This document shows positions 1,957 through 29,407 of a stretch of 34,365 nt of DNA, piece after piece. Source of the DNA: Candidatus Helarchaeota archaeon. GTDB lineage: Archaea; Asgardarchaeota; Lokiarchaeia; Helarchaeales; RDOG01. Each line of letters opens with the position of its first letter. Position 1 is the first letter of the stretch. Under the pieces are notes generated by a model, which saw nothing but the letters and a program-made list of their open reading frames with translations, made no database searches and had not been told where the DNA came from. Made by a program: the position numbers and the translations under genes. The stretch lies in assembly GCA_029838215.1 (NCBI GenBank), contig JALGVI010000032.1:1-34365 (forward strand), read 5' to 3'.

Positions 1957-4236
1957 GTGAATGAAATGGTTGATGAAATACAATTACGCGTGCAATCAAT
2001 AGATGAAAAAAGTGCCATGAGATCATGGGTACGGGTAGATCCAGAAGTCTTCCCGAAATTGAAAATCTCAACGGGAGATATTATTCAGATACGGGGCAAA
2101 AAGACGACAGGAGCCATTGTAATCCCTGCCAAAAAAGAAGATGTAAACATGAACATCATTCGAATGGATGGCCTGATCAGGCAAAATGCTCAAGCAGGTA
2201 TTGGAGATATCGTAACTGTCGCAAAAATTAAGGTTCCAAAGGCTGAAAAAATTGTTTTGGCACCTGCTGCCGAAAATATCAGAGTAAGAATTTCGGGTGA
2301 TAGCATAAAAGGACATCTCATCAATAGACCCGTTAATAAAGGTGATATCTTAAGCGTATTTCGCCAACAGAGGCAACGTTCACAATCAATGCAGTTTTCA
2401 CCTCAATTTTTCGAAGAGTTTTTAACGGGAATGCGGTCTAAAAACCCATCAATGGGAGAAATTCGATTCAAGGTCATCCAGACAGTTCCCAATCAAATCG
2501 TTCAAGTAACGGGAAATACCAAAATTGAGATAAATTCTGAAGCCGTAACCTTACCGTCGGGTGTTCCGATTGTAACATATGAAGATGTTGGAGGTCTTGA
2601 AGACGCCATTCAAAGAATCCGGGAAATGGTTGAGCTTCCATTAAAACATCCCGAACTATTTTCGGCTTTGGGGATAGATCCTCCAAAAGGAGTTCTTTTA
2701 CACGGTCCTCCAGGAACGGGAAAAACCCTACTGGCAAAAGCCGTTGCAAATGAATCAATCGCAAATTTCGAGGTCATCAATGGTCCTGAAATAATGTCCA
2801 AATTCTATGGACAATCTGAAGAAACTTTGCGTAAAAAGTTCGAAAAAGCCGAACAAAAAGCTCCCAGCATCTTATTTATTGATGAAATAGATTCAATCGC
2901 CCCAAAACGGGAGGAAGTAACGGGTGAAGTCGAGCGAAGAGTCGTTGCCCAACTTTTAGGACTGATGGATGGTCTAAAAGGTAGAGGAAATGTCATAGTA
3001 ATTGGAGCTACGAATCGACCAAATGCATTAGATCCCGCACTTCGAAGACCCGGACGATTTGATCGAGAAATTGAGCTTCCAATGCCCGATAAAAAAGGAC
3101 GTAGAGAAATCTTACAGATTCACACGCGTGGAATGCCACTACACGAAGATGTCAACCTTGAAGAAATCATTAACATCACGCACGGATTTGTTGGAGCAGA
3201 CATTGCTGCACTGGCTCGTGAAGCCGCAATGTGTTGCTTGCGAAAAATTTTACCGGAATTAAACTTGGATGAGAGGTTCATTCCACAAGAAATCCTTGAT
3301 AAACTTCGAGTTTGCAGGGAGGATTTTTTGGAAGCACGCAAGCTTGTTGAACCCAGCACCCTCCGCGAAGTAATCATCGAAATACCCAACGTAAAGTGGG
3401 ATGATATCGGAGGACTTCACGATGTCAAGGAAAAACTTCGTGAAACAATAGAATGGCCATTAAAAACGCCAGATATTTTTAAAGAAGTGGGTATTCGTCC
3501 ACCTAGAGGCATTCTCTTGTTCGGACCTCCCGGTTGCGGAAAAACCTTGTTGGCGAAAGGTGTTGCCACAGAAAGCCAAGCAAACTTCATCAGCATTAGA
3601 GGACCGGAAGTATTTTCCAAATGGGTTGGAGAAAGCGAAAAAGCCATCAGGGAAGTATTCAGAAAAGCGAGAACTGCGGCACCATCAATCATTTATTTTG
3701 ATGAACTCGATGCAGTGGCTCCGAGGCGCGGTGCTTATTCGGGCTCGCAAGTCTATGAATCTGTTTTAAATCAAATTCTTTCAGAATTCGATGGACTTGA
3801 AGACCTTAAGAATGTAGTCGTTGTTGCATCAACAAATCGTCCTGACTTGATAGATCCCGCACTATTACGCCCGGGAAGATTCGATCAGTTAATTCTGGTG
3901 CCTGCTCCTAACCGAGAAAATCGAAAGGAAATTTTTAAAGTCCATACAAAACACATGAAACTCATTGATGATGTTGATATTGATAAGATCGTGGGTGATC
4001 TTGATGGATTTAGTGGTGCAGATATCGAAAATCTCATACGAGAAGCAGGAATGGAAGCAATTCGAGATGCAAAATTAAGTAATAAACCAATAAAAGGCGT
4101 GAACTCGATGCATTTTGAACGAGCTGCAAGAGCAGTACACGCAACCCTTACCCCAGACATCATCAAAAAATATGAAAACATGTATAAGACACTAAAATCC
4201 AAACGCGCTGCCGTAAAAGAATCGCACTATGCCTAA
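1957..4236 (+). CDS. cdc48: Cdc48/VCP (VAT) AAA+ ATPase
   Basis: N domain ([12 protein letters not shown]), two AAA modules with Walker A GPPGTGKT and GPPGCGKT, Walker B FIDEID and YFDELD, and [12 protein letters not shown] / LLRPGRFD. Ends in HYA. True start may be the ATG at 1966. Confidence 0.97.
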
Positions 4237-5573: not shown

Positions 5574-6365
5574 TTGGAAGAAAAAAACGTGTCTTTTGAG
5601 AAGATTTACGGCAAGGACCTCGTAACAATCGATAAAAATCAGCTAAAAAAGCCAATCTCTGTACACGGCATGCCCGGAATGGGAATGGCAGGGAAAAATG
5701 CTGTAGATTTATTTATAAAAGTATTACCGAATGTACGGAAAATACATGAGATATATTCATCGGCTTTCCCCAGTCACGTCGCCATTTTGAATGATGGTTC
5801 CATCAGACCTCCAAAAATAGATATCTATCTTGCGAAAAATCCCGAAGGAAATCATGATTTCATATTGGTTACAGGCGACTTTCAGCCAAGTAGCGCCACG
5901 GGTACGAATGTTCTTTCTTCTTACATCGTAAATTATCTAAACCAGTTAGGAATAACGCAAATCATTTCTTTAGCCGCAACACCTGTAGCGGCACCAAAAG
6001 AAAAACCAAAAGTATTCATGACTGCCACTTCAGACGATTTAATACCCCCGTTTCGTGAATTAGGCGTCAAGCCCTTTATCAAAGGAGTCATTACGGGAAT
6101 GAATGGAACGGTCCCTGCCATGGGAAAGCTTGAACACGACATGGATGGGGTCATCCTTTTATCAGAAACCTTTCCTCAATTCATGGAGGATGCTAAAGCG
6201 AGCGTTTCACTCGTTAGAATACTTGAATCATATTTATTACTTGAAGTGAATACCGAAGAACTTGAAGAAAAGGGAGAAAAAAATCTCAAGATCTACGAAA
6301 AAATGATGAATAAAAAACGAAAACAATCAAAACGTCGCGGACGAAGCGTGGGATACATAAGTTGA
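5574..6365 (+). CDS. PAC2-family proteasome assembly chaperone-like protein
   Basis: GMPGMGMAGKNAV, LVTGDFQP, GVITGMNG, LSET..DAKAS and a C-terminal GYIS match archaeal PAC2/Pba-type proteins. Confidence 0.82.
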   Translation: MEEKNVSFEKIYGKDLVTIDKNQLKKPISVHGMPGMGMAGKNAVDLFIKVLPNVRKIHEIYSSAFPSHVAILNDGSIRPPKIDIYLAKNPEGNHDFILVTGDFQPSSATGTNVLSSYIVNYLNQLGITQIISLAATPVAAPKEKPKVFMTATSDDLIPPFRELGVKPFIKGVITGMNGTVPAMGKLEHDMDGVILLSETFPQFMEDAKASVSLVRILESYLLLEVNTEELEEKGEKNLKIYEKMMNKKRKQSKRRGRSVGYIS

Positions 6366-6380: not shown

Positions 6381-6872
6381 ATGCCAAATAAGATATTTCA
6401 AAACGAAGAATATCATGTTCAAATAGACTATTTACCCGAAAACTTCATCCTACAAGAACTTTCAGGAAACAAAGAAGAAGGCAAGATAATTTTTGAGTCT
6501 CGAGAAATCCTCGATGAATCCTATGGCGCATACATCAAATTTGAATATTCATGGAACACGATAGAATTTGATTTTCGACTTTCAGATGGTGATCTGATCG
6601 ACGAAATCGACAGGCAATATCAACGACTCAGAATAAACTCAATTGAGCGAAATGGAGAATATATTAACACGCACTATAATCAGTACATAACAGGTTCCAG
6701 AATTATCGTTCAAAAAGAGATTCAATACCCCACGGTAGAAATCAATGGTGTTTTCTACTGCGAACATTCTGAGAGACAATTCAATTATCGATTCATGATT
6801 TACCGTAAGATTTATGAAGAGTGGAAAAATACTCTTTTAGAAATCATTCATGCATTTAAATGCCATTTTTAG
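6381..6872 (+). CDS. Hypothetical protein, possibly PsbP/DcrB/Mog1-like fold
   Basis: 163-aa ORF in line with its neighbours. The N-terminal IDYLPENF strand-turn and C-terminal helix-strand (WKNTLLEIIHAFK) resemble the PsbP-like pattern. Fold call is tentative. Confidence 0.6.
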   Translation: MPNKIFQNEEYHVQIDYLPENFILQELSGNKEEGKIIFESREILDESYGAYIKFEYSWNTIEFDFRLSDGDLIDEIDRQYQRLRINSIERNGEYINTHYNQYITGSRIIVQKEIQYPTVEINGVFYCEHSERQFNYRFMIYRKIYEEWKNTLLEIIHAFKCHF

Positions 6873-7000: not shown

Positions 7001-8344
7001 ATGCCAAAAAAGAGCAACCTCGAAACGGAAATGCTTGAAATACCAACTTCAACAGATTTTCCTAATGTAATGTCCCCTAAACGCATTTATTTCAGTAAAA
7101 TCAAGAATGGAACCAAATATCGCATTGGTAAGGGATTTAGCCTTAAAGAAATTAAGGCCGCCGCCATTCCGCTTGATATAGTCATGAAGTATAAATCACG
7201 AGTTCCAATTGATAGACGAAGAAAGACCCTTCATGATGAAAACGTTGCATATCTTGGAAAGTTATTTCGGGAAATATTAAAACAAAGGGAAAGCAGACTG
7301 GAAGAAATTAAAAAAATAGATAAAAAGAAAAAAGAACTAGTCAAAAACCTGACAAAAAGTCTTGGCATATCAAAAAAGGAAGCACTTGCAATTACAGAAG
7401 CGGGAGTTAAATCTGTTGAACAATTAGTAAATGAAGATCCAAAGGTTTTAGCTAAGGATTTAGGAATTAAAACAAGTGACGTTAACAAGTTAATAAAAGA
7501 AGCAAGGCGCGTGACAGTTCTTAAAGAATTGGAAGATGCAATTAAGAACTTGACCCAACTTAAATCAATAAATGCTTCAAAAGCTAAAGAATTGGCAGCT
7601 CTTGGAATCGTAAATATTGAGATTCTTGCAGAAGAAGTCCCTGAAGAGCTTGCAACAGAGATGGGCTATGCTGAAAAGATGACTTCAAACTGGATAAAAG
7701 AAGCCCGAGAAATGCTTGGATCTAAAACAAAGAAAAAAGAAATTGAAAGATTGAAGCCAGTTGCTAAAAAAGGAAAAAAGCATAAAGTCGAAGAGGCAGG
7801 ACTGAAAGACATCCTAAATAAACAGGAAATAAGAGCACTTGCAGATATTGAAGTAAAAACACTCAAGGATCTTGCAGAAGAAAACCCTGACGAAATTTCT
7901 TCGATTTTGGGCATAAATAAAAATATTACTCAAAAGTGGATAAACGATGCCAGACGGTTGCTGGGTCTCGAACTCGTTACGGAAGTAAAGAAACCTAAGA
8001 AGCAAAAATACGAAGAGATAGACCAGCTAATCGAAAAAAGTTTCGAAATATCCCTTGATTTAGAAGAGGAAGAAGAAATAAGTTCTGAAGAAATTAAAGA
8101 AACAATGGAAGAAATAAAAACCGTTGCTAAAAAAGTAGAAGACGAAAAAGATGAACTAAAAAAGACCGTTGCTTTGCTTGTTAAAGTACCCAGTCTGGGA
8201 AAAGCATCTGCTGAAAAACTGTATAAAGCAGGAGTTCGGACCATCGAGGATTTGATTCATGCAAACGCTGAGGAACTGGCAGAAAAAAGCAAGATTTCCA
8301 TCAAAAAGATTCAAGTTTTCATTGAAAATGCTTCAAATTTATGA
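7001..8344 (+). CDS. rpl13e: Ribosomal protein eL13 domain fused to four tandem (HhH)2 modules
   Basis: RIGKGFSLKEIKAAAI...VPIDRRRKTLHDENV is the eL13 signature. It is followed by four ~55-aa repeats such as VPSLGKASAEKLYKAGVRTIEDLIHANAEELAEKSKIS (RadA-N/NusA-AR-like HhH). Confidence 0.85.
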   Translation: MPKKSNLETEMLEIPTSTDFPNVMSPKRIYFSKIKNGTKYRIGKGFSLKEIKAAAIPLDIVMKYKSRVPIDRRRKTLHDENVAYLGKLFREILKQRESRLEEIKKIDKKKKELVKNLTKSLGISKKEALAITEAGVKSVEQLVNEDPKVLAKDLGIKTSDVNKLIKEARRVTVLKELEDAIKNLTQLKSINASKAKELAALGIVNIEILAEEVPEELATEMGYAEKMTSNWIKEAREMLGSKTKKKEIERLKPVAKKGKKHKVEEAGLKDILNKQEIRALADIEVKTLKDLAEENPDEISSILGINKNITQKWINDARRLLGLELVTEVKKPKKQKYEEIDQLIEKSFEISLDLEEEEEISSEEIKETMEEIKTVAKKVEDEKDELKKTVALLVKVPSLGKASAEKLYKAGVRTIEDLIHANAEELAEKSKISIKKIQVFIENASNL

Positions 8345-8381
8345 AAAAAAAGTAATGGAAAATAATTATTCTACTAATTTT

Positions 8382-9062
8382 TTATTTACTTTCTATTAAT
8401 TTTTTATATACTTCTTTCTTTTTGGCATCCATGGTCAAAAGCTCTCTCGGCGCATTTTCATCATCAATTTCATTTAAAATGTTCATCAGCATTTCTTTTA
8501 ATTCGTCCAACGTGGCATCCTCATGATACGCTTCTTTCAATAGACTCATTGCCTTGTTTTCATCGTTTCCTACAGCTATTGCTTTAACTTTAAATTTGGC
8601 TCCACTAGGTTCAATCAAATGAATGGATGGACCAGAAGAATCGATTCCCGCAAAAATAAGGCTTACACCAAAAGGTCTACCGCCAAATTGAGTAACTTGT
8701 TGCATTTTATTGCTAATTTTCCAAGCCAAAACATCGAGATCGGGATCTTCATTATAATACAGCCGCTGTACTTGAGCCTCAATTCGTGCTTGATTTATCA
8801 AAACTCTCGAATCGGCTAACAGACCCGAAAATGCTGTAAAAATAAATTCTTCAATTTGAAAAATTTTCTCATTATTCTCGTATAATGGATTAAAACTATT
8901 ATACTGTGATAGAACTACCACACCTGCATTTGACCGTGCAGCCAAAACAAGAGACCCGCGCTTCACGGCTTCTCGTGCATACTCTATCTGATGAATTCTG
9001 CCGTCAGGACTGAACATGGTAGCAATCCTGTCATACCCTCCTAACCGTCCAACATCAAACAT
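8382..9062 (-). CDS. psmA: 20S proteasome alpha-type subunit, divergent paralog
   Basis: GYDRIATMFSPDGRIHQIEYAREAVKRG, SGLLADSRVL, GGRPFGVSLIFAG. 226 aa with a degenerate C-terminal third. Confidence 0.93.
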   Translation of the reverse strand: MFDVGRLGGYDRIATMFSPDGRIHQIEYAREAVKRGSLVLAARSNAGVVVLSQYNSFNPLYENNEKIFQIEEFIFTAFSGLLADSRVLINQARIEAQVQRLYYNEDPDLDVLAWKISNKMQQVTQFGGRPFGVSLIFAGIDSSGPSIHLIEPSGAKFKVKAIAVGNDENKAMSLLKEAYHEDATLDELKEMLMNILNEIDDENAPRELLTMDAKKKEVYKKLIESK

Positions 9063-27490: not shown

Positions 27491-29407
27491 TCACATCTTT
27501 TCAGGTGTATTGATTCCCATTATTTGATTTAAACCAATTCGAAATACGATATTCACGCATTTCACGAGTGCTAAACGAGCGGCTCGGACATCTTCGGGAG
27601 CCTTTAGCACTTGACAGGTACGATAAAAATCGGAAAATTTATCTGCAAGTAACAATAAATATTCGGCTATTAAGTGAATGCTGAATGTCCTTTTAATTTC
27701 ATTTATTACTTCAGGAAACCGTGCAAGATGTAATATTAACGCTCTCTCTGCTGGCTGACCAAGTTTCTCTAAATTTTTTGGAACGATCTCTTCAGAAACC
27801 TTCTCCAAAATACCCCGAGTCCGCACGAACGCATATTGAATGTAAGGGCAGCTATTTCCTTCAAAATTGAGAACTTCATCCCACTTTAATATGATTTTCC
27901 GGTCCGTTTTGAATTTTGCAAGGTAATATTTGATTGCACCAACCCCAATCTTTTCTGCCAATTCTCGCTTGTAATCATCCGAAAAATCATCGTGCCTCTT
28001 GCTTACTTCATCATATGCAAGAGAGACGGCTTTATCGAGTGCCGCATCAGCATGAAATCCAATCCAAGTCCCTTTTCTGCCGGAAAATTTTTGATCGGGC
28101 AACCAAACATGTTCGAATTTTAAATGATGAGAATTTTGAAATTCTTTTTCGAATCCCAGAACTTTTAAGGCGTGAAACACGACCTGTTGCGGAAAATCTT
28201 GTTCCACCCCTATGACGTTAATGGCCTTGTCCGCAAAACCAAAACAGTCTCGAGGAATGCCCCCAGCACAAGTTTCCCAAAGCTCTTGCTCATTTGGTTG
28301 AATGGTTTTCAATCGATATGAGAATTGAGTCTTCGCAAGTCCGAGCTTAAAAAAATGAAACCCGATATCCCTACCCGTGTATGTTGTGACACCATTCGAG
28401 CGCACGATGATTTTATACGGCTTTTCTTGATTGGCAAACCGCTTTCCATATTCTCCCATGTTAACAACAATACAACCCTTATCAGGTCCTTCTGTGATCT
28501 TATAAACATTATTTGATTTAATAATTTGGTCTAAAACTTCATCGAAAAGACCACTCCGGATGATGTCACTTTCCCAAATTAATAGATTATAAAAAATATT
28601 CATTCTCCAAGCGGTTTCAAGTTGTCCCAGCACGGCGTTTTCAACAATATTTTGGGCTATACTTGCTTCCGGATCAATCTTTTCTTCCATCTTACGAATT
28701 ATTTCCTTAATTTCTTCTTCTTTCTCGGGGGTTTCTTCCAATTCCTTTGAGGCATCAACATATAACTTCCCAATCGTGAAGTCAATCTTTTCATCTTCCT
28801 TTGAAAGAACAAATTCCTTATTTGGAAGCGTTTTCCAAACCAATACGGCAATTTGGCGTCCAAGATCATCCATGTAATTCTCAACTTCTACATCATACCC
28901 ACAAAATCGAAAGACTCTACTGATCAAGTCACCAATTACAGCACATCGCATGGTTCCCATGTGAATTGGCTTATTAGGATTTGCAGATGTATGTTCAACT
29001 ATGACTTTCTTATTTTTTCCTTCCCACGTTCGTCCATAATCATTTTGATTCTCGAGAATCTCCTTGAAAACATCTGAAGCGAATCTTTCCCAATTCAGAA
29101 AATAGTTAATGTAGCCGTTACGTGCAATTTCGATCCTGCCAAGATAAGAAGCCGAATCGAGATTAAATTGTTTTTTAATGTCTTCTGCAATCTTTAAAGG
29201 TGCTTGCTTCATCTTTTTTGCAAGTGAAAATGCAACAGGAGAAGAAAAATCCCCAAGAGCCAAATCTGGCGTGGGAATGATGATTTTATTGACATTCATT
29301 TCATCGATAAAAGTAGAAACAGAACCCAATGCTGTTTTAAGCTTTGATAGTATCTCTTGTTTCACCCGTTCAATGGCATATTTCATCATGTCTTGCATCG
29401 CTCTCAT
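27491..29407 (-). CDS. argS: Arginine--tRNA ligase
   Basis: GDFSSPVAF, ARNGYINYF, EHTSANPNKPIHMG (HIGH-like), FSGRKG (KMSKS-like), FEGNSCPYIQYA, DALR tail. ATGA overlap with the upstream stop. Confidence 0.97.
   Translation of the reverse strand: MRAMQDMMKYAIERVKQEILSKLKTALGSVSTFIDEMNVNKIIIPTPDLALGDFSSPVAFSLAKKMKQAPLKIAEDIKKQFNLDSASYLGRIEIARNGYINYFLNWERFASDVFKEILENQNDYGRTWEGKNKKVIVEHTSANPNKPIHMGTMRCAVIGDLISRVFRFCGYDVEVENYMDDLGRQIAVLVWKTLPNKEFVLSKEDEKIDFTIGKLYVDASKELEETPEKEEEIKEIIRKMEEKIDPEASIAQNIVENAVLGQLETAWRMNIFYNLLIWESDIIRSGLFDEVLDQIIKSNNVYKITEGPDKGCIVVNMGEYGKRFANQEKPYKIIVRSNGVTTYTGRDIGFHFFKLGLAKTQFSYRLKTIQPNEQELWETCAGGIPRDCFGFADKAINVIGVEQDFPQQVVFHALKVLGFEKEFQNSHHLKFEHVWLPDQKFSGRKGTWIGFHADAALDKAVSLAYDEVSKRHDDFSDDYKRELAEKIGVGAIKYYLAKFKTDRKIILKWDEVLNFEGNSCPYIQYAFVRTRGILEKVSEEIVPKNLEKLGQPAERALILHLARFPEVINEIKRTFSIHLIAEYLLLLADKFSDFYRTCQVLKAPEDVRAARLALVKCVNIVFRIGLNQIMGINTPEKM

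What the first reader, a model, noticed from the sequence alone, without database searches (positions are those of the whole stretch)
7001..8344. Ribosomal protein eL13 carrying four HhH modules (447 aa)
Seen: an eL13 core (~7064-7270), a Lys/Glu helix, then four ~55-aa (HhH)2 repeats (~7346-7510, 7547-7714, 7799-7960, 8174-8341) with one basic and one highly acidic linker (LEEEEEISSEE), all in one uninterrupted frame. Known: archaeal eL13 is normally under ~100 aa. HhH pairs of this type occur in the RadA/Rad51 N-domain and NusA acidic repeats and bind nucleic acid or protein. An HhH fusion is known for eL32 in some euryarchaea. Inference: a long flexible multivalent arm on the large subunit that could tether ribosomes to DNA/RNA, RNA polymerase, other ribosomes or quality-control factors such as the nearby Cdc48.
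Basis: partly seen in the sequence, partly recalled or inferred. Interest (0 to 1): 0.75.

Follow-up and report, generated by a model that had tools for sequence, protein, structure and literature searches.

The report
Ribosomal protein eL13 with four-HhH tail
The only eL13 ribosomal-protein gene of this Helarchaeales (Asgard) genome really does carry four helix-hairpin-helix modules, the extreme of a previously undescribed series in which archaeal eL13 carries 0 to 4 such modules; what the tail binds is still unknown.

Summary
It is the only eL13 in the genome. All 7 genomes of the order (Helarchaeales, by record labels) have one eL13, always with 3-4 modules, so it is not an assembly chimera.

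The fusion itself is much wider than this lineage. Most Asgard families carry 1-2 modules on eL13. So do a few non-Asgard MAGs: Pyrohabitans, MAGs labelled Thermococci, Methanomicrobia or Methanobacteriota, and one Bathyarchaeia. Thermoproteota and Odinarchaeia eL13 are short and have none. Forms with 3-4 modules were seen only in Helarchaeales.

Modules are as conserved as the core, group by position, and keep a conserved charge pattern; the linkers are not conserved. The terminal module has the most canonical GhG hairpin.

Best reading: a solvent-side, partly flexible appendage of the large subunit. Its basic end modules contact nucleic-acid backbone and its acidic inner modules act as spacers or docking sites. 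The ligand is untested.

No description was found in the searched literature. NCBI simply names these proteins "ribosomal protein L13e". This is a new variant of a known kind, of moderate interest.

The parts
7001..8344 (+). Complete CDS of eL13-(HhH)2x4, 447 aa plus stop
   Evidence: The N-terminus aligns with orthologues from the first residues.
7076..7285 (+). eL13 core (aa 26-95) with the GxGFS...DxRR...N signature. Carries an 8-aa insertion shared only with P0002.
   Evidence: Foldseek matches to eL13 chains 9e6q_AH and 6p5i_AL.
7235..7363 (+). Long helix aa 79-121, including the Lys/Glu stretch aa 96-115. It lies within the aa 34-120 stretch matched by the Pfam L13e model (profile positions 56-143), so it is part of the eL13 family and not a new linker.
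   Evidence: AF2 model; Pfam match range.
7346..7516 (+). HhH module 1 (aa 116-172). Basic (net +3). First hairpin reads G-I-S.
7547..7720 (+). HhH module 2 (aa 183-240). Acidic (net -4), with a degenerate first hairpin. Joined to module 1 by a continuous predicted helix (aa 158-184).
   Evidence: Foldseek match to NusA, whose C-terminal part holds the AR repeats (8y5l_NA, E 4e-4).
7721..7798 (+). Basic linker (aa 241-266, net +7), predicted disordered
   Evidence: Basic in all orthologues that have module 3.
7799..7966 (+). HhH module 3 (aa 267-322, net -1). The first hairpin has lost two residues relative to the GIGK of the sister genus and family f29. Module 3 is absent in family f30.
7967..8173 (+). 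Acidic linker (aa 323-391, net -10). Partly disordered, poorly conserved and variable in length.
8174..8341 (+). HhH module 4 (aa 392-447, net +2). Canonical G-h-G-K...A-E-K-L hairpin (G398, G400, K401, E405, K406 invariant or nearly so). Closest to the single module of other archaeal eL13.
6381..6872 (+). 163-aa ORF with no Pfam family. Conserved neighbour of eL13 across the class Lokiarchaeia. PsbP/Mog1/DcrB-like fold. H98, C127 and H162 are invariant.
5574..6365 (+). PAC2-family gene. Lies upstream of eL13 in 4 of the 7 genomes of the order.

Best explanation
This is the genome's single large-subunit ribosomal protein eL13. Its eukaryote-like core and long helix anchor it on the solvent side of the 50S subunit. 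The C-terminus carries an array of four RadA-N / NusA-AR-like (HhH)2 modules.

The array is a Helarchaeales-specific expansion of an older archaeal eL13-HhH fusion. Other lineages carry 0, 1 or 2 modules.

Proposed mechanism (inferred, not shown):
- The array is a surface appendage with a stiff proximal pair (HhH1-HhH2) and two flexible linkers.
- The basic modules, above all the canonical terminal HhH4, make sequence-independent backbone contacts with double-stranded nucleic acid. The most likely ligand is rRNA or another RNA at or near the ribosome.
- The acidic inner modules with degenerate hairpins, and the charged linkers, serve as spacers or protein-docking surfaces.

My odds: identity and architecture about 0.95; appendage under selection about 0.85; nucleic acid as the ligand of the end modules about 0.4.
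For: Identity:
- eL13 HMM and PDB matches.
- Core residues G43, G45, S47, E50, D71, R74 and N81 are invariant across 24 Asgard eL13.
- Fold matches to solved eL13 chains.
- It is the only eL13 in this 94%-complete genome.
- Every one of the 7 genomes of the order has one eL13, always the long form.

Not an artefact:
- The same architecture is found on independent contigs up to 1.48 Mb long.

Selection:
- Modules are 40-46% identical across the order, against 48% for the core and 17-33% for the linkers.
- Modules cluster by position, not by genome.
- The charge pattern is conserved: acidic inner modules, a basic linker before module 3, an acidic linker before a basic last module.

Series across archaea:
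- 0 modules in Thermoproteota and Odinarchaeia.
- 1 in Jordarchaeia, family f2 and others.
- 2 in f13, f17, f19 and f20; 3 in f30; 4 in f1 and f29. Pfam confirms L13e plus HHH_5 in f2, f13, f17, Pyrohabitans and a MAG labelled Thermococci.

Nucleic-acid reading:
- HhH4 keeps the canonical G-h-G-K hairpin in all orthologues.
- HhH4 is the module that the non-Asgard single modules resemble most: 33-61 bits against at most 33 bits for the other three module profiles.
- The nearest families and folds are DNA-binding HhH domains: RadA N-domain, Pol beta/lambda, Hel308, Topo V.

Architecture:
- AF2 gives helical modules at pLDDT 80-93, with disordered segments at aa 240-270 and 322-362.
Against: - No binding was measured or modelled.
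- The tail as a whole is about neutral (net -1) with acidic blocks, unlike typical rRNA-embedded extensions.
- Two of the four modules have degenerate hairpins. The best structural match of the HhH1-HhH2 pair is NusA, whose AR1-AR2 repeats, from prior knowledge, bind proteins.
- The resemblance of single modules to HhH4 may only reflect closeness to the generic HhH consensus.
- 23S rRNA length does not track module number in the 5 genomes compared.
- The Pfam eL13 score is only just above the cut-off, and the NCBIfam equivalog cut-off is not reached.
Confidence: 0.5

Rival explanations
1. The tail is mainly a protein-protein adaptor that recruits factors to the large subunit, as the NusA acidic repeats recruit partners. 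Candidates are proteostasis or assembly factors encoded nearby: the PAC2-family protein, the conserved 163-aa PsbP/Mog1-like protein, Cdc48 or the proteasome.
For: - HhH2 and HhH3 are acidic with degenerate hairpins.
- The best fold match is NusA, over 150 columns; the NusA AR profile hits weakly.
- The 163-aa ORF stays linked to eL13 across the class despite changes of order and strand. It has a fold shared with chaperones and adaptors.
- PAC2-eL13 adjacency is seen in 4 of 7 genomes of the order.
- A proteasome beta gene lies next to eL13 in family f13.
Against: - Gene neighbourhood alone is weak evidence. Linkage of ribosomal and proteasome genes in archaeal superoperons is long known without a shown physical link (my own knowledge).
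- The terminal module is a canonical nucleic-acid-type HhH.
- The NusA AR profile scores 19.9 bits, far below its cut-off of 48.15.
Confidence: 0.2
2. The tail tethers ribosomes to a membrane or to each other through HhH-HhH pairing. The membrane partner would be the paralogous HhH-didomain membrane protein (DUF4332 plus 4 TM segments) present in the order.
For: - In four of the other six genomes of the order (f29 and f30), the closest paralogue of HhH1-HhH2 (30-35% identity, E 1e-11 to 1e-15) is followed by 4-5 predicted TM segments. A fifth (G201, f29) shows the same layout, but its frame runs to a contig end. The f29 forms add a C-terminal HhH pair.
- (HhH)2 domains are known dimerisation modules in XPF-ERCC1 and Hef (my own knowledge).
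Against: - No interaction test was possible.
- In this genome and in G206 the paralogue is a short soluble didomain with no TM part.
- Shared domains may simply share a ligand.
Confidence: 0.08
3. The tail binds genomic DNA and holds ribosomes at the nucleoid or at transcribing RNA polymerase.
For: The nearest HhH families are all DNA-binding. Tandem (HhH)2 arrays bind DNA in topoisomerase V (8df7).
Against: eL13 sits on the solvent face of the large subunit in the eL8/eL13/eL15/eL36 cluster on domain I (PMC4671574), far from the mRNA path. Only two modules are basic. There is no supporting genomic context.
Confidence: 0.1
4. The gene is an assembly or annotation artefact, or the extra modules are a neutral repeat expansion without function.
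For: Reads could not be inspected. The linkers vary in length, including a KEKPKE-type repeat expansion in one orthologue.
Against: - The architecture recurs in 7 genomes and in several metagenome contigs.
- Modules are conserved as well as the core and by position.
- There is no DNA-level repeat and GC is uniform across the gene.
Confidence: 0.04

Closest known systems
Archaeal/eukaryotic ribosomal protein eL13 (Pfam PF01294; NCBIfam PRK12277)
   Same: Core signature, fold and the long helix after the core. Sole copy in the genome.
   Different: Crenarchaeal eL13 is 65-112 aa with no tail. Eukaryotic eL13 has helical extensions but gave no HhH alignment. This protein adds about 330 aa with four (HhH)2 modules.
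Single- and double-module eL13-HhH of other Asgard lineages and a few other archaea (annotated only as 'ribosomal protein L13e')
   Same: Same fusion, same order of parts. The last module resembles HhH4.
   Different: They carry 1-2 modules, often with strongly basic linkers. Here there are 4 modules, with acidic inner modules and alternating charged linkers.
Haloarchaeal eL32 with an HhH extension (NCBIfam PRK12766)
   Same: A large-subunit r-protein fused to an HhH module (weak hit to profile positions 7-51).
   Different: A different r-protein. The matched profile positions place the HhH near the N-terminus, and only one matched stretch was seen. Not homologous as a fusion.
NusA C-terminal acidic repeats AR1-AR2
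   Same: Two (HhH)2 modules, as in the HhH1-HhH2 pair here. Best Foldseek match is a NusA chain.
   Different: Bacterial transcription factor. The profile score is below its cut-off. No NusA core is present.
Tandem (HhH)2 arrays of Methanopyrus topoisomerase V, and the RadA/Rad51 N-terminal domain
   Same: Module type. In Topo V, a multi-module array that binds DNA backbone.
   Different: No catalytic domain here. The array hangs on a ribosomal protein. Two modules are degenerate.

Membership tests
Ribosomal protein eL13 (PF01294 / PRK12277) | Profile match above the curated cut-off | tested here: inconclusive
   Pfam gives 25.1 bits against a cut-off of 24.9, and 26.9 bits in the genome scan. 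The NCBIfam equivalog gives 43.7 bits against a cut-off of 96, with E 1.6e-11. Orthologues in the order score 33-45 bits.
Ribosomal protein eL13 (PF01294 / PRK12277) | Conserved core signature G-x-G-F-S ... D-x-R-R ... N | tested here: met
   G43, G45, S47, E50, D71, R74 and N81 are invariant in 24 Asgard eL13. The motif aligns to eL13 chains in the PDB.
Ribosomal protein eL13 (PF01294 / PRK12277) | Core fold like solved eL13 | tested here: met
   Foldseek probability 1.00 to 9e6q_AH (60 columns, 30% identity) and 0.98 to 6p5i_AL. The core has pLDDT 77-88, but the first 40 residues are low.
Ribosomal protein eL13 (PF01294 / PRK12277) | Is the cell's eL13 (no other copy) and resides in the 50S subunit | tested here: inconclusive
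   A single copy was shown in the genome and across the order. Physical presence in the ribosome cannot be tested here.
(HhH)2 domain (Pfam HHH_5, PF14520) | Profile match and five-helix module with two hairpins | tested here: met
   E 7.8e-23 in 4 stretches. AF2 helices are as expected for each module. Fold matches to the RadA N-domain with rmsd 1.1-1.2 over 51-54 columns.
(HhH)2 domain (Pfam HHH_5, PF14520) | Canonical G-h-G hairpin used for backbone contacts | tested here: inconclusive
   Met in HhH4 (L-G-K, conserved). Partly met in HhH1 (G-I-S). Not met in the first hairpins of HhH2 and HhH3 of this protein.
(HhH)2 domain (Pfam HHH_5, PF14520) | Binds nucleic acid | not testable with these tools
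   Needs EMSA or a structure.
NusA acidic repeat (TIGR01954) | Profile score above cut-off, with NusA domain context | tested here: not met
   19.9 bits against a cut-off of 48.15. There is no NusA N-terminal, S1 or KH domain. The resemblance is structural only.
RadA/Rad51 recombinase | ATPase core following the N-terminal HhH domain | tested here: not met
   Only profile positions 7-59 of 316 match, four times. The score is 66 bits against a cut-off of 259.

The most novel reading that the evidence does not exclude
The HhH array is a docking device. It would pair with the paralogous HhH-didomain membrane protein (DUF4332 plus 4 TM) of Helarchaeales, or with HhH modules on neighbouring ribosomes. 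That would give these Asgard archaea membrane-attached or clustered ribosomes through a large-subunit surface protein, an independent analogue of ER-bound ribosomes.
Probability: 0.06. Interest if true: 0.9.

Novelty: new variant of a known kind. Interest (0 to 1): 0.5.

Why it matters
Ribosomal proteins are usually treated as invariant markers. Here a large-subunit protein carries a lineage-variable number (0-4) of nucleic-acid-type modules in the archaea closest to eukaryotes.

If the tail binds RNA, DNA, a membrane protein or assembly factors, it would be a specialised ribosome appendage in Asgard archaea. It would also give a protein counterpart to their supersized rRNA expansion segments.

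The single-module form occurs in the same class as the window's genome. From my own knowledge that class includes cultured Lokiarchaeia, so the question should be open to experiment by ribosome cryo-EM.

There is also a practical point. eL13 length heterogeneity, and annotations such as 'DUF4332 protein' or 'flap endonuclease-like nuclease' given to fragments, can mislead marker-gene and annotation pipelines.

Tried and rejected
- Read-level junction check: the look-up of sequencing runs listed no run, DNA or RNA. No read-laying run was possible, so there is no evidence on expression.
- Complex prediction of the full eL13-HhH against the 163-aa neighbour gave no verdict (score 0.00). This is not evidence either way.
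- The search for homologous proteins restricted to shorter proteins returned one fragment only.
A 5-sequence alignment worked.
- Test of co-variation between rRNA expansion segments and module number. 23S lengths were 3467 and 3159 nt (4 modules), 3182 (1 module), 3086 (2 modules) and 3088 (0 modules). An 82-84-nt insertion is shared by the two 4-module genomes, but a 54-nt one is present in a 1-module genome and none in a 2-module genome. With five genomes this gives no usable trend and I dropped it.
- Module phylogeny: deep forks are unresolved with 55 columns, and the careful search did not finish. I used only the clustering by position within the order.
- The bacterial-type promoter/terminator scan was uninformative for an archaeon.
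- Literature searches found no description of the fusion: eL13/L13e with HhH, Asgard, fused or extension; DUF4332; Asgard ribosome structure; and the Asgard r-protein cluster paper. PMC5995209, on the structural diversity of r-proteins, is not held.
- Assembly chimera and neutral repeat expansion were considered and rejected (see rivals).

Full report
**1. The observation**

The window holds one uninterrupted frame at 7001-8344 (+) that encodes 447 aa.

- Pfam finds Ribosomal_L13e at aa 34-120 (25.1 bits, cut-off 24.9) and HHH_5 in four stretches (E 7.8e-23).
- NCBIfam finds the L13e equivalog at aa 30-94 (E 1.6e-11, below its cut-off). It also gives repeated matches to the first about 55 positions of RadA, and weaker ones to the HhH parts of Hel308-type helicases, topoisomerase I, Pol IV, the NusA C-terminal repeat and haloarchaeal L32e.
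- The best PDB sequence matches are eL13 chains from eukaryotic ribosomes and from Pyrobaculum calidifontis.
- A profile built from the four repeats places them at aa 116-170, 183-237, 268-319 and 393-445.
- Segment charges match the description: core +11, HhH1 +3, HhH2 -4, basic linker +7, HhH3 -1, acidic linker -10, HhH4 +2.
- There is no DNA-level tandem repeat in the gene and the GC content is even across it.

**2. Is it the real eL13, and is it real at all?**

The window lies on contig C85 of a 3.6-Mb, 94%-complete genome. That genome has this one eL13 match and no other.

All seven genomes of the same order have exactly one credible eL13, in open frames of 368-492 aa. Named records place the order in Helarchaeota/Helarchaeales, for example Hel_GB_A at 392 aa with four modules.

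The same architecture is present on independent contigs of up to 1.48 Mb, so an assembly chimera is very unlikely. Reads could not be examined.

Across 24 Asgard eL13 the core residues G43, G45, S47, E50, D71, R74 and N81 are invariant.

**3. Structure**

An AF2 model built from 14 orthologues has mean pLDDT 76. It shows:

- a small core (aa 40-78);
- a 43-residue helix (aa 79-121), which lies inside the stretch matched by the Pfam L13e model and therefore belongs to the eL13 family;
- HhH1 (aa 125-170) running through one continuous helix (aa 158-184) into HhH2 (aa 192-239);
- a disordered basic linker;
- HhH3 (aa 274-321);
- a largely disordered acidic linker containing a helix;
- a helix (aa 363-393) leading into HhH4 (aa 401-446).

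Foldseek against the PDB returns a NusA chain over 150 columns (8y5l_NA, E 4e-4). It also returns topoisomerase V with its tandem (HhH)2 domains, RadA N-terminal domains (rmsd about 1.1-1.2 over 51-54 columns), and eL13 chains 9e6q_AH and 6p5i_AL.

**4. Distribution**

I scanned 201 genomes of the phylum with the L13e model, then extracted the ORFs. A core-pattern scan of named genomes gave 61 more loci. Together they show a series:

| Lineage | eL13 length | HhH modules |
|---|---|---|
| Thermoproteota (Sulfolobaceae, Desulfurococcales, Aeropyrum and others) | 65-112 aa | 0 |
| Infirmifilum (Thermoproteota) | 157 aa | 0 |
| Most Bathyarchaeia | 68-112 aa | 0 |
| Odinarchaeia | 99-124 aa | 0 |
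| Jordarchaeia, family f2 of the window's own class, f5, f7, f8, f10, f16, f22 | about 145-217 aa | 1 |
| f13, f17, f19, f20 | 213-335 aa | 2 |
| f30 (same order as the window) | 355-366 aa | 3 |
| f1 (the window's family) and f29 | 392-489 aa | 4 |

One module also occurs outside Asgard: in Pyrohabitans jungbluthii, in MAGs deposited as Thermococci, Methanomicrobia or Methanobacteriota (labels not verified), and in one Bathyarchaeia.

Pfam independently confirms L13e plus HHH_5 in representatives of f2, f13, f17, Pyrohabitans and a 'Thermococci' MAG.

An exhaustive profile search of 1.84 billion representative proteins found 16 proteins at E <= 1e-30. Only about five of them are full-length clusters of the 3-4-module form. 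NCBI names these 'ribosomal protein L13e [Candidatus Helarchaeota archaeon]'.

The fusion is therefore old and widespread. The four-module array is the lineage-specific part.

**5. Evidence of constraint**

- Across the order the modules are 40-46% identical to the window's protein. The core is 48% and the linkers 17-33%.
- In a tree of 110 modules, the modules of f1 and f29 group by position (m1, m2, m3, m4) and not by genome. The array therefore predates the radiation of the order. Deeper forks are unresolved.
- The charge pattern recurs in all orthologues: acidic inner modules, a basic linker before module 3, and an acidic linker before a basic last module.
- HhH4 keeps a canonical G-h-G-K...A-E-K-L hairpin in every orthologue. 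The first hairpins of HhH2 and HhH3 are degenerate in this protein.
- Single modules of non-Asgard eL13, and of f5, f8 and f10, score best against the HhH4 profile. This suggests the extra modules were added between the core and an ancestral terminal module. Closeness of HhH4 to the generic consensus is an alternative explanation.

**6. Mechanism**

*Shown:* it is the sole eL13; the tail is conserved and modular; part of it is predicted to be flexible; the end modules are of the nucleic-acid-binding type.

*From the literature:* in yeast, eL13 belongs to the eL8/eL13/eL15/eL36 cluster on domain I of the large-subunit rRNA, on the solvent side (PMC4671574). Asgard rRNAs carry supersized ES9 and ES39 (PMC7594248; PMC9834061).

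*Inferred:* the tail projects from the solvent face. The basic HhH1 and the canonical HhH4 contact double-stranded nucleic-acid backbone, most plausibly rRNA or another RNA near the ribosome. The acidic HhH2 and HhH3 and the linkers act as spacers or docking surfaces.

A simple co-variation between 23S rRNA size and module number was not seen in five genomes. The near-neutral net charge of the tail argues against a fully rRNA-embedded extension.

**7. Rivals**

- Protein adaptor in the style of the NusA acidic repeats.
- A membrane or inter-ribosome tether through HhH-HhH pairing.
- A DNA tether.
- An artefact or a neutral repeat expansion.

Two context observations bear on the first two rivals.

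First, the 163-aa ORF at 6381-6872 stays next to eL13 across the class. It is upstream in f1, downstream in f2 and divergent in f3. It folds with high confidence (pLDDT 88) into a PsbP/Mog1/DcrB/Eag-like fold and has invariant H98, C127 and H162. A PAC2-family gene precedes eL13 in four genomes of the order. Cdc48 and the proteasome alpha and beta genes are in the window.

Second, the closest paralogue of the HhH1-HhH2 pair in the order is an HhH didomain followed by 4-5 predicted TM segments. This holds in f29 and f30, although the G201 frame runs to a contig end. In f29 there is also a second HhH pair at the C-terminus. In this genome and in G206 the paralogue is a short soluble didomain; in this genome it lies beside the eS26 gene.

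**8. Novelty**

No paper in the searched library describes an eL13-HhH fusion. A review table lists eL13 only as present or absent per phylum (PMC9932298).

The proteins are in public databases under generic names. The finding is therefore a new variant of a known kind: an r-protein with an accessory domain, here a tandem (HhH)2 array.

Noticed in passing
window 6381-6872 (+); also L033 917-1390, L047-L050, L052, L053, L097: A 163-aa ORF with no Pfam family stays linked to the eL13 gene across the class Lokiarchaeia despite changes of order and strand. AF2 gives pLDDT 88 and a PsbP/Mog1/DcrB/Eag-chaperone-like fold. H98, C127 and H162 are invariant, with C161 in 8 of 9 sequences, which may form a metal site. 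It is a candidate eL13 partner or chaperone; the complex prediction gave no verdict.
   Followed up: partly
window 1957-4236, 5574-6365, 8382-9062 (-), 9063-9770 (-): eL13 sits in a proteostasis-themed neighbourhood: Cdc48, a PAC2-family gene, and the proteasome alpha and beta genes. PAC2-eL13 adjacency recurs in 4 of 7 genomes of the order. In family f13 a proteasome beta gene lies divergently next to eL13 in all loci seen.
   Followed up: partly
L039 1489-3018 (G203), L041-L044; G000 contig C146 (L040 1528-1953): A family with an N-terminal HhH didomain resembling the eL13 tail's HhH1-HhH2, followed by 4-5 predicted TM segments. In f29 it also has a C-terminal DUF4332/HhH pair. In the window's genome it is only a 141-aa soluble didomain, divergent from the eS26 gene.
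   Followed up: partly
G000 contig C165:55169-58635 (L128): The genome's 23S rRNA is 3467 nt long. It has two insertions, about 251 nt and 96 nt, in regions where a sister genome and three other Asgard genomes have none. These may be introns. An 82-84-nt insertion is shared with the sister genome, and a 54-nt one is present in a family f2 genome.
   Followed up: partly
L023 (G146, family f8), minus strand: A single in-frame TAA separates an 82-aa eL13 core ORF from an ORF that begins with an HhH module. This could be a split gene, a nonsense mutation, a sequencing error or read-through. Other f8 genomes have either fused 148-179-aa forms or 68-aa core-only forms.
   Followed up: no
phylum scan, families f6, f15, f23: No eL13 match in 0 of 21, 0 of 7 and 0 of 10 genomes of three Asgard families, some of them closed genomes. 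This agrees with the review table that lists eL13 as absent in Heimdallarchaeota. The family names could not be verified.
   Followed up: no
L053 (f3, 314 aa), L054 (f3, 231 aa), L060 (f18, 211 aa), L062 (f28, 216 aa), L055 (f17, 334 aa): The eL13 C-terminus is a hot spot for other appendages. f3, f18 and f28 have long tails with no detectable HhH. f17 has an extremely acidic tail (net about -66) between and after two HhH modules.
   Followed up: partly
L085 (DATKTP010000259, labelled Deferrimicrobium) and L116 (DKAT01000070, labelled Spirochaetia): Contigs in bacterial MAGs carry archaeal eL13 genes. L085 matches the order-level Helarchaeales genome G202 in length (489 aa), module coordinates and blast hits. 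These are probably mis-binned contigs.
   Followed up: no
window 8369-8413: A 22-nt direct repeat (2 copies, 91% match). It spans the gap between the convergent eL13 and proteasome alpha genes and runs into the 3' end of the proteasome alpha CDS (8382-9062, minus strand). It may be a shared termination region.
   Followed up: no
window 11120-13408, 13422-14213 (-), 14364-15278: Three sizeable ORFs (762, 263 and 304 aa) have no Pfam match at E <= 1e-5. Hydrogenase maturation genes HypD (17866-18963) and HypF (20934-23285) and an arginyl-tRNA synthetase (27491-29407, minus strand) lie further along.
   Followed up: no
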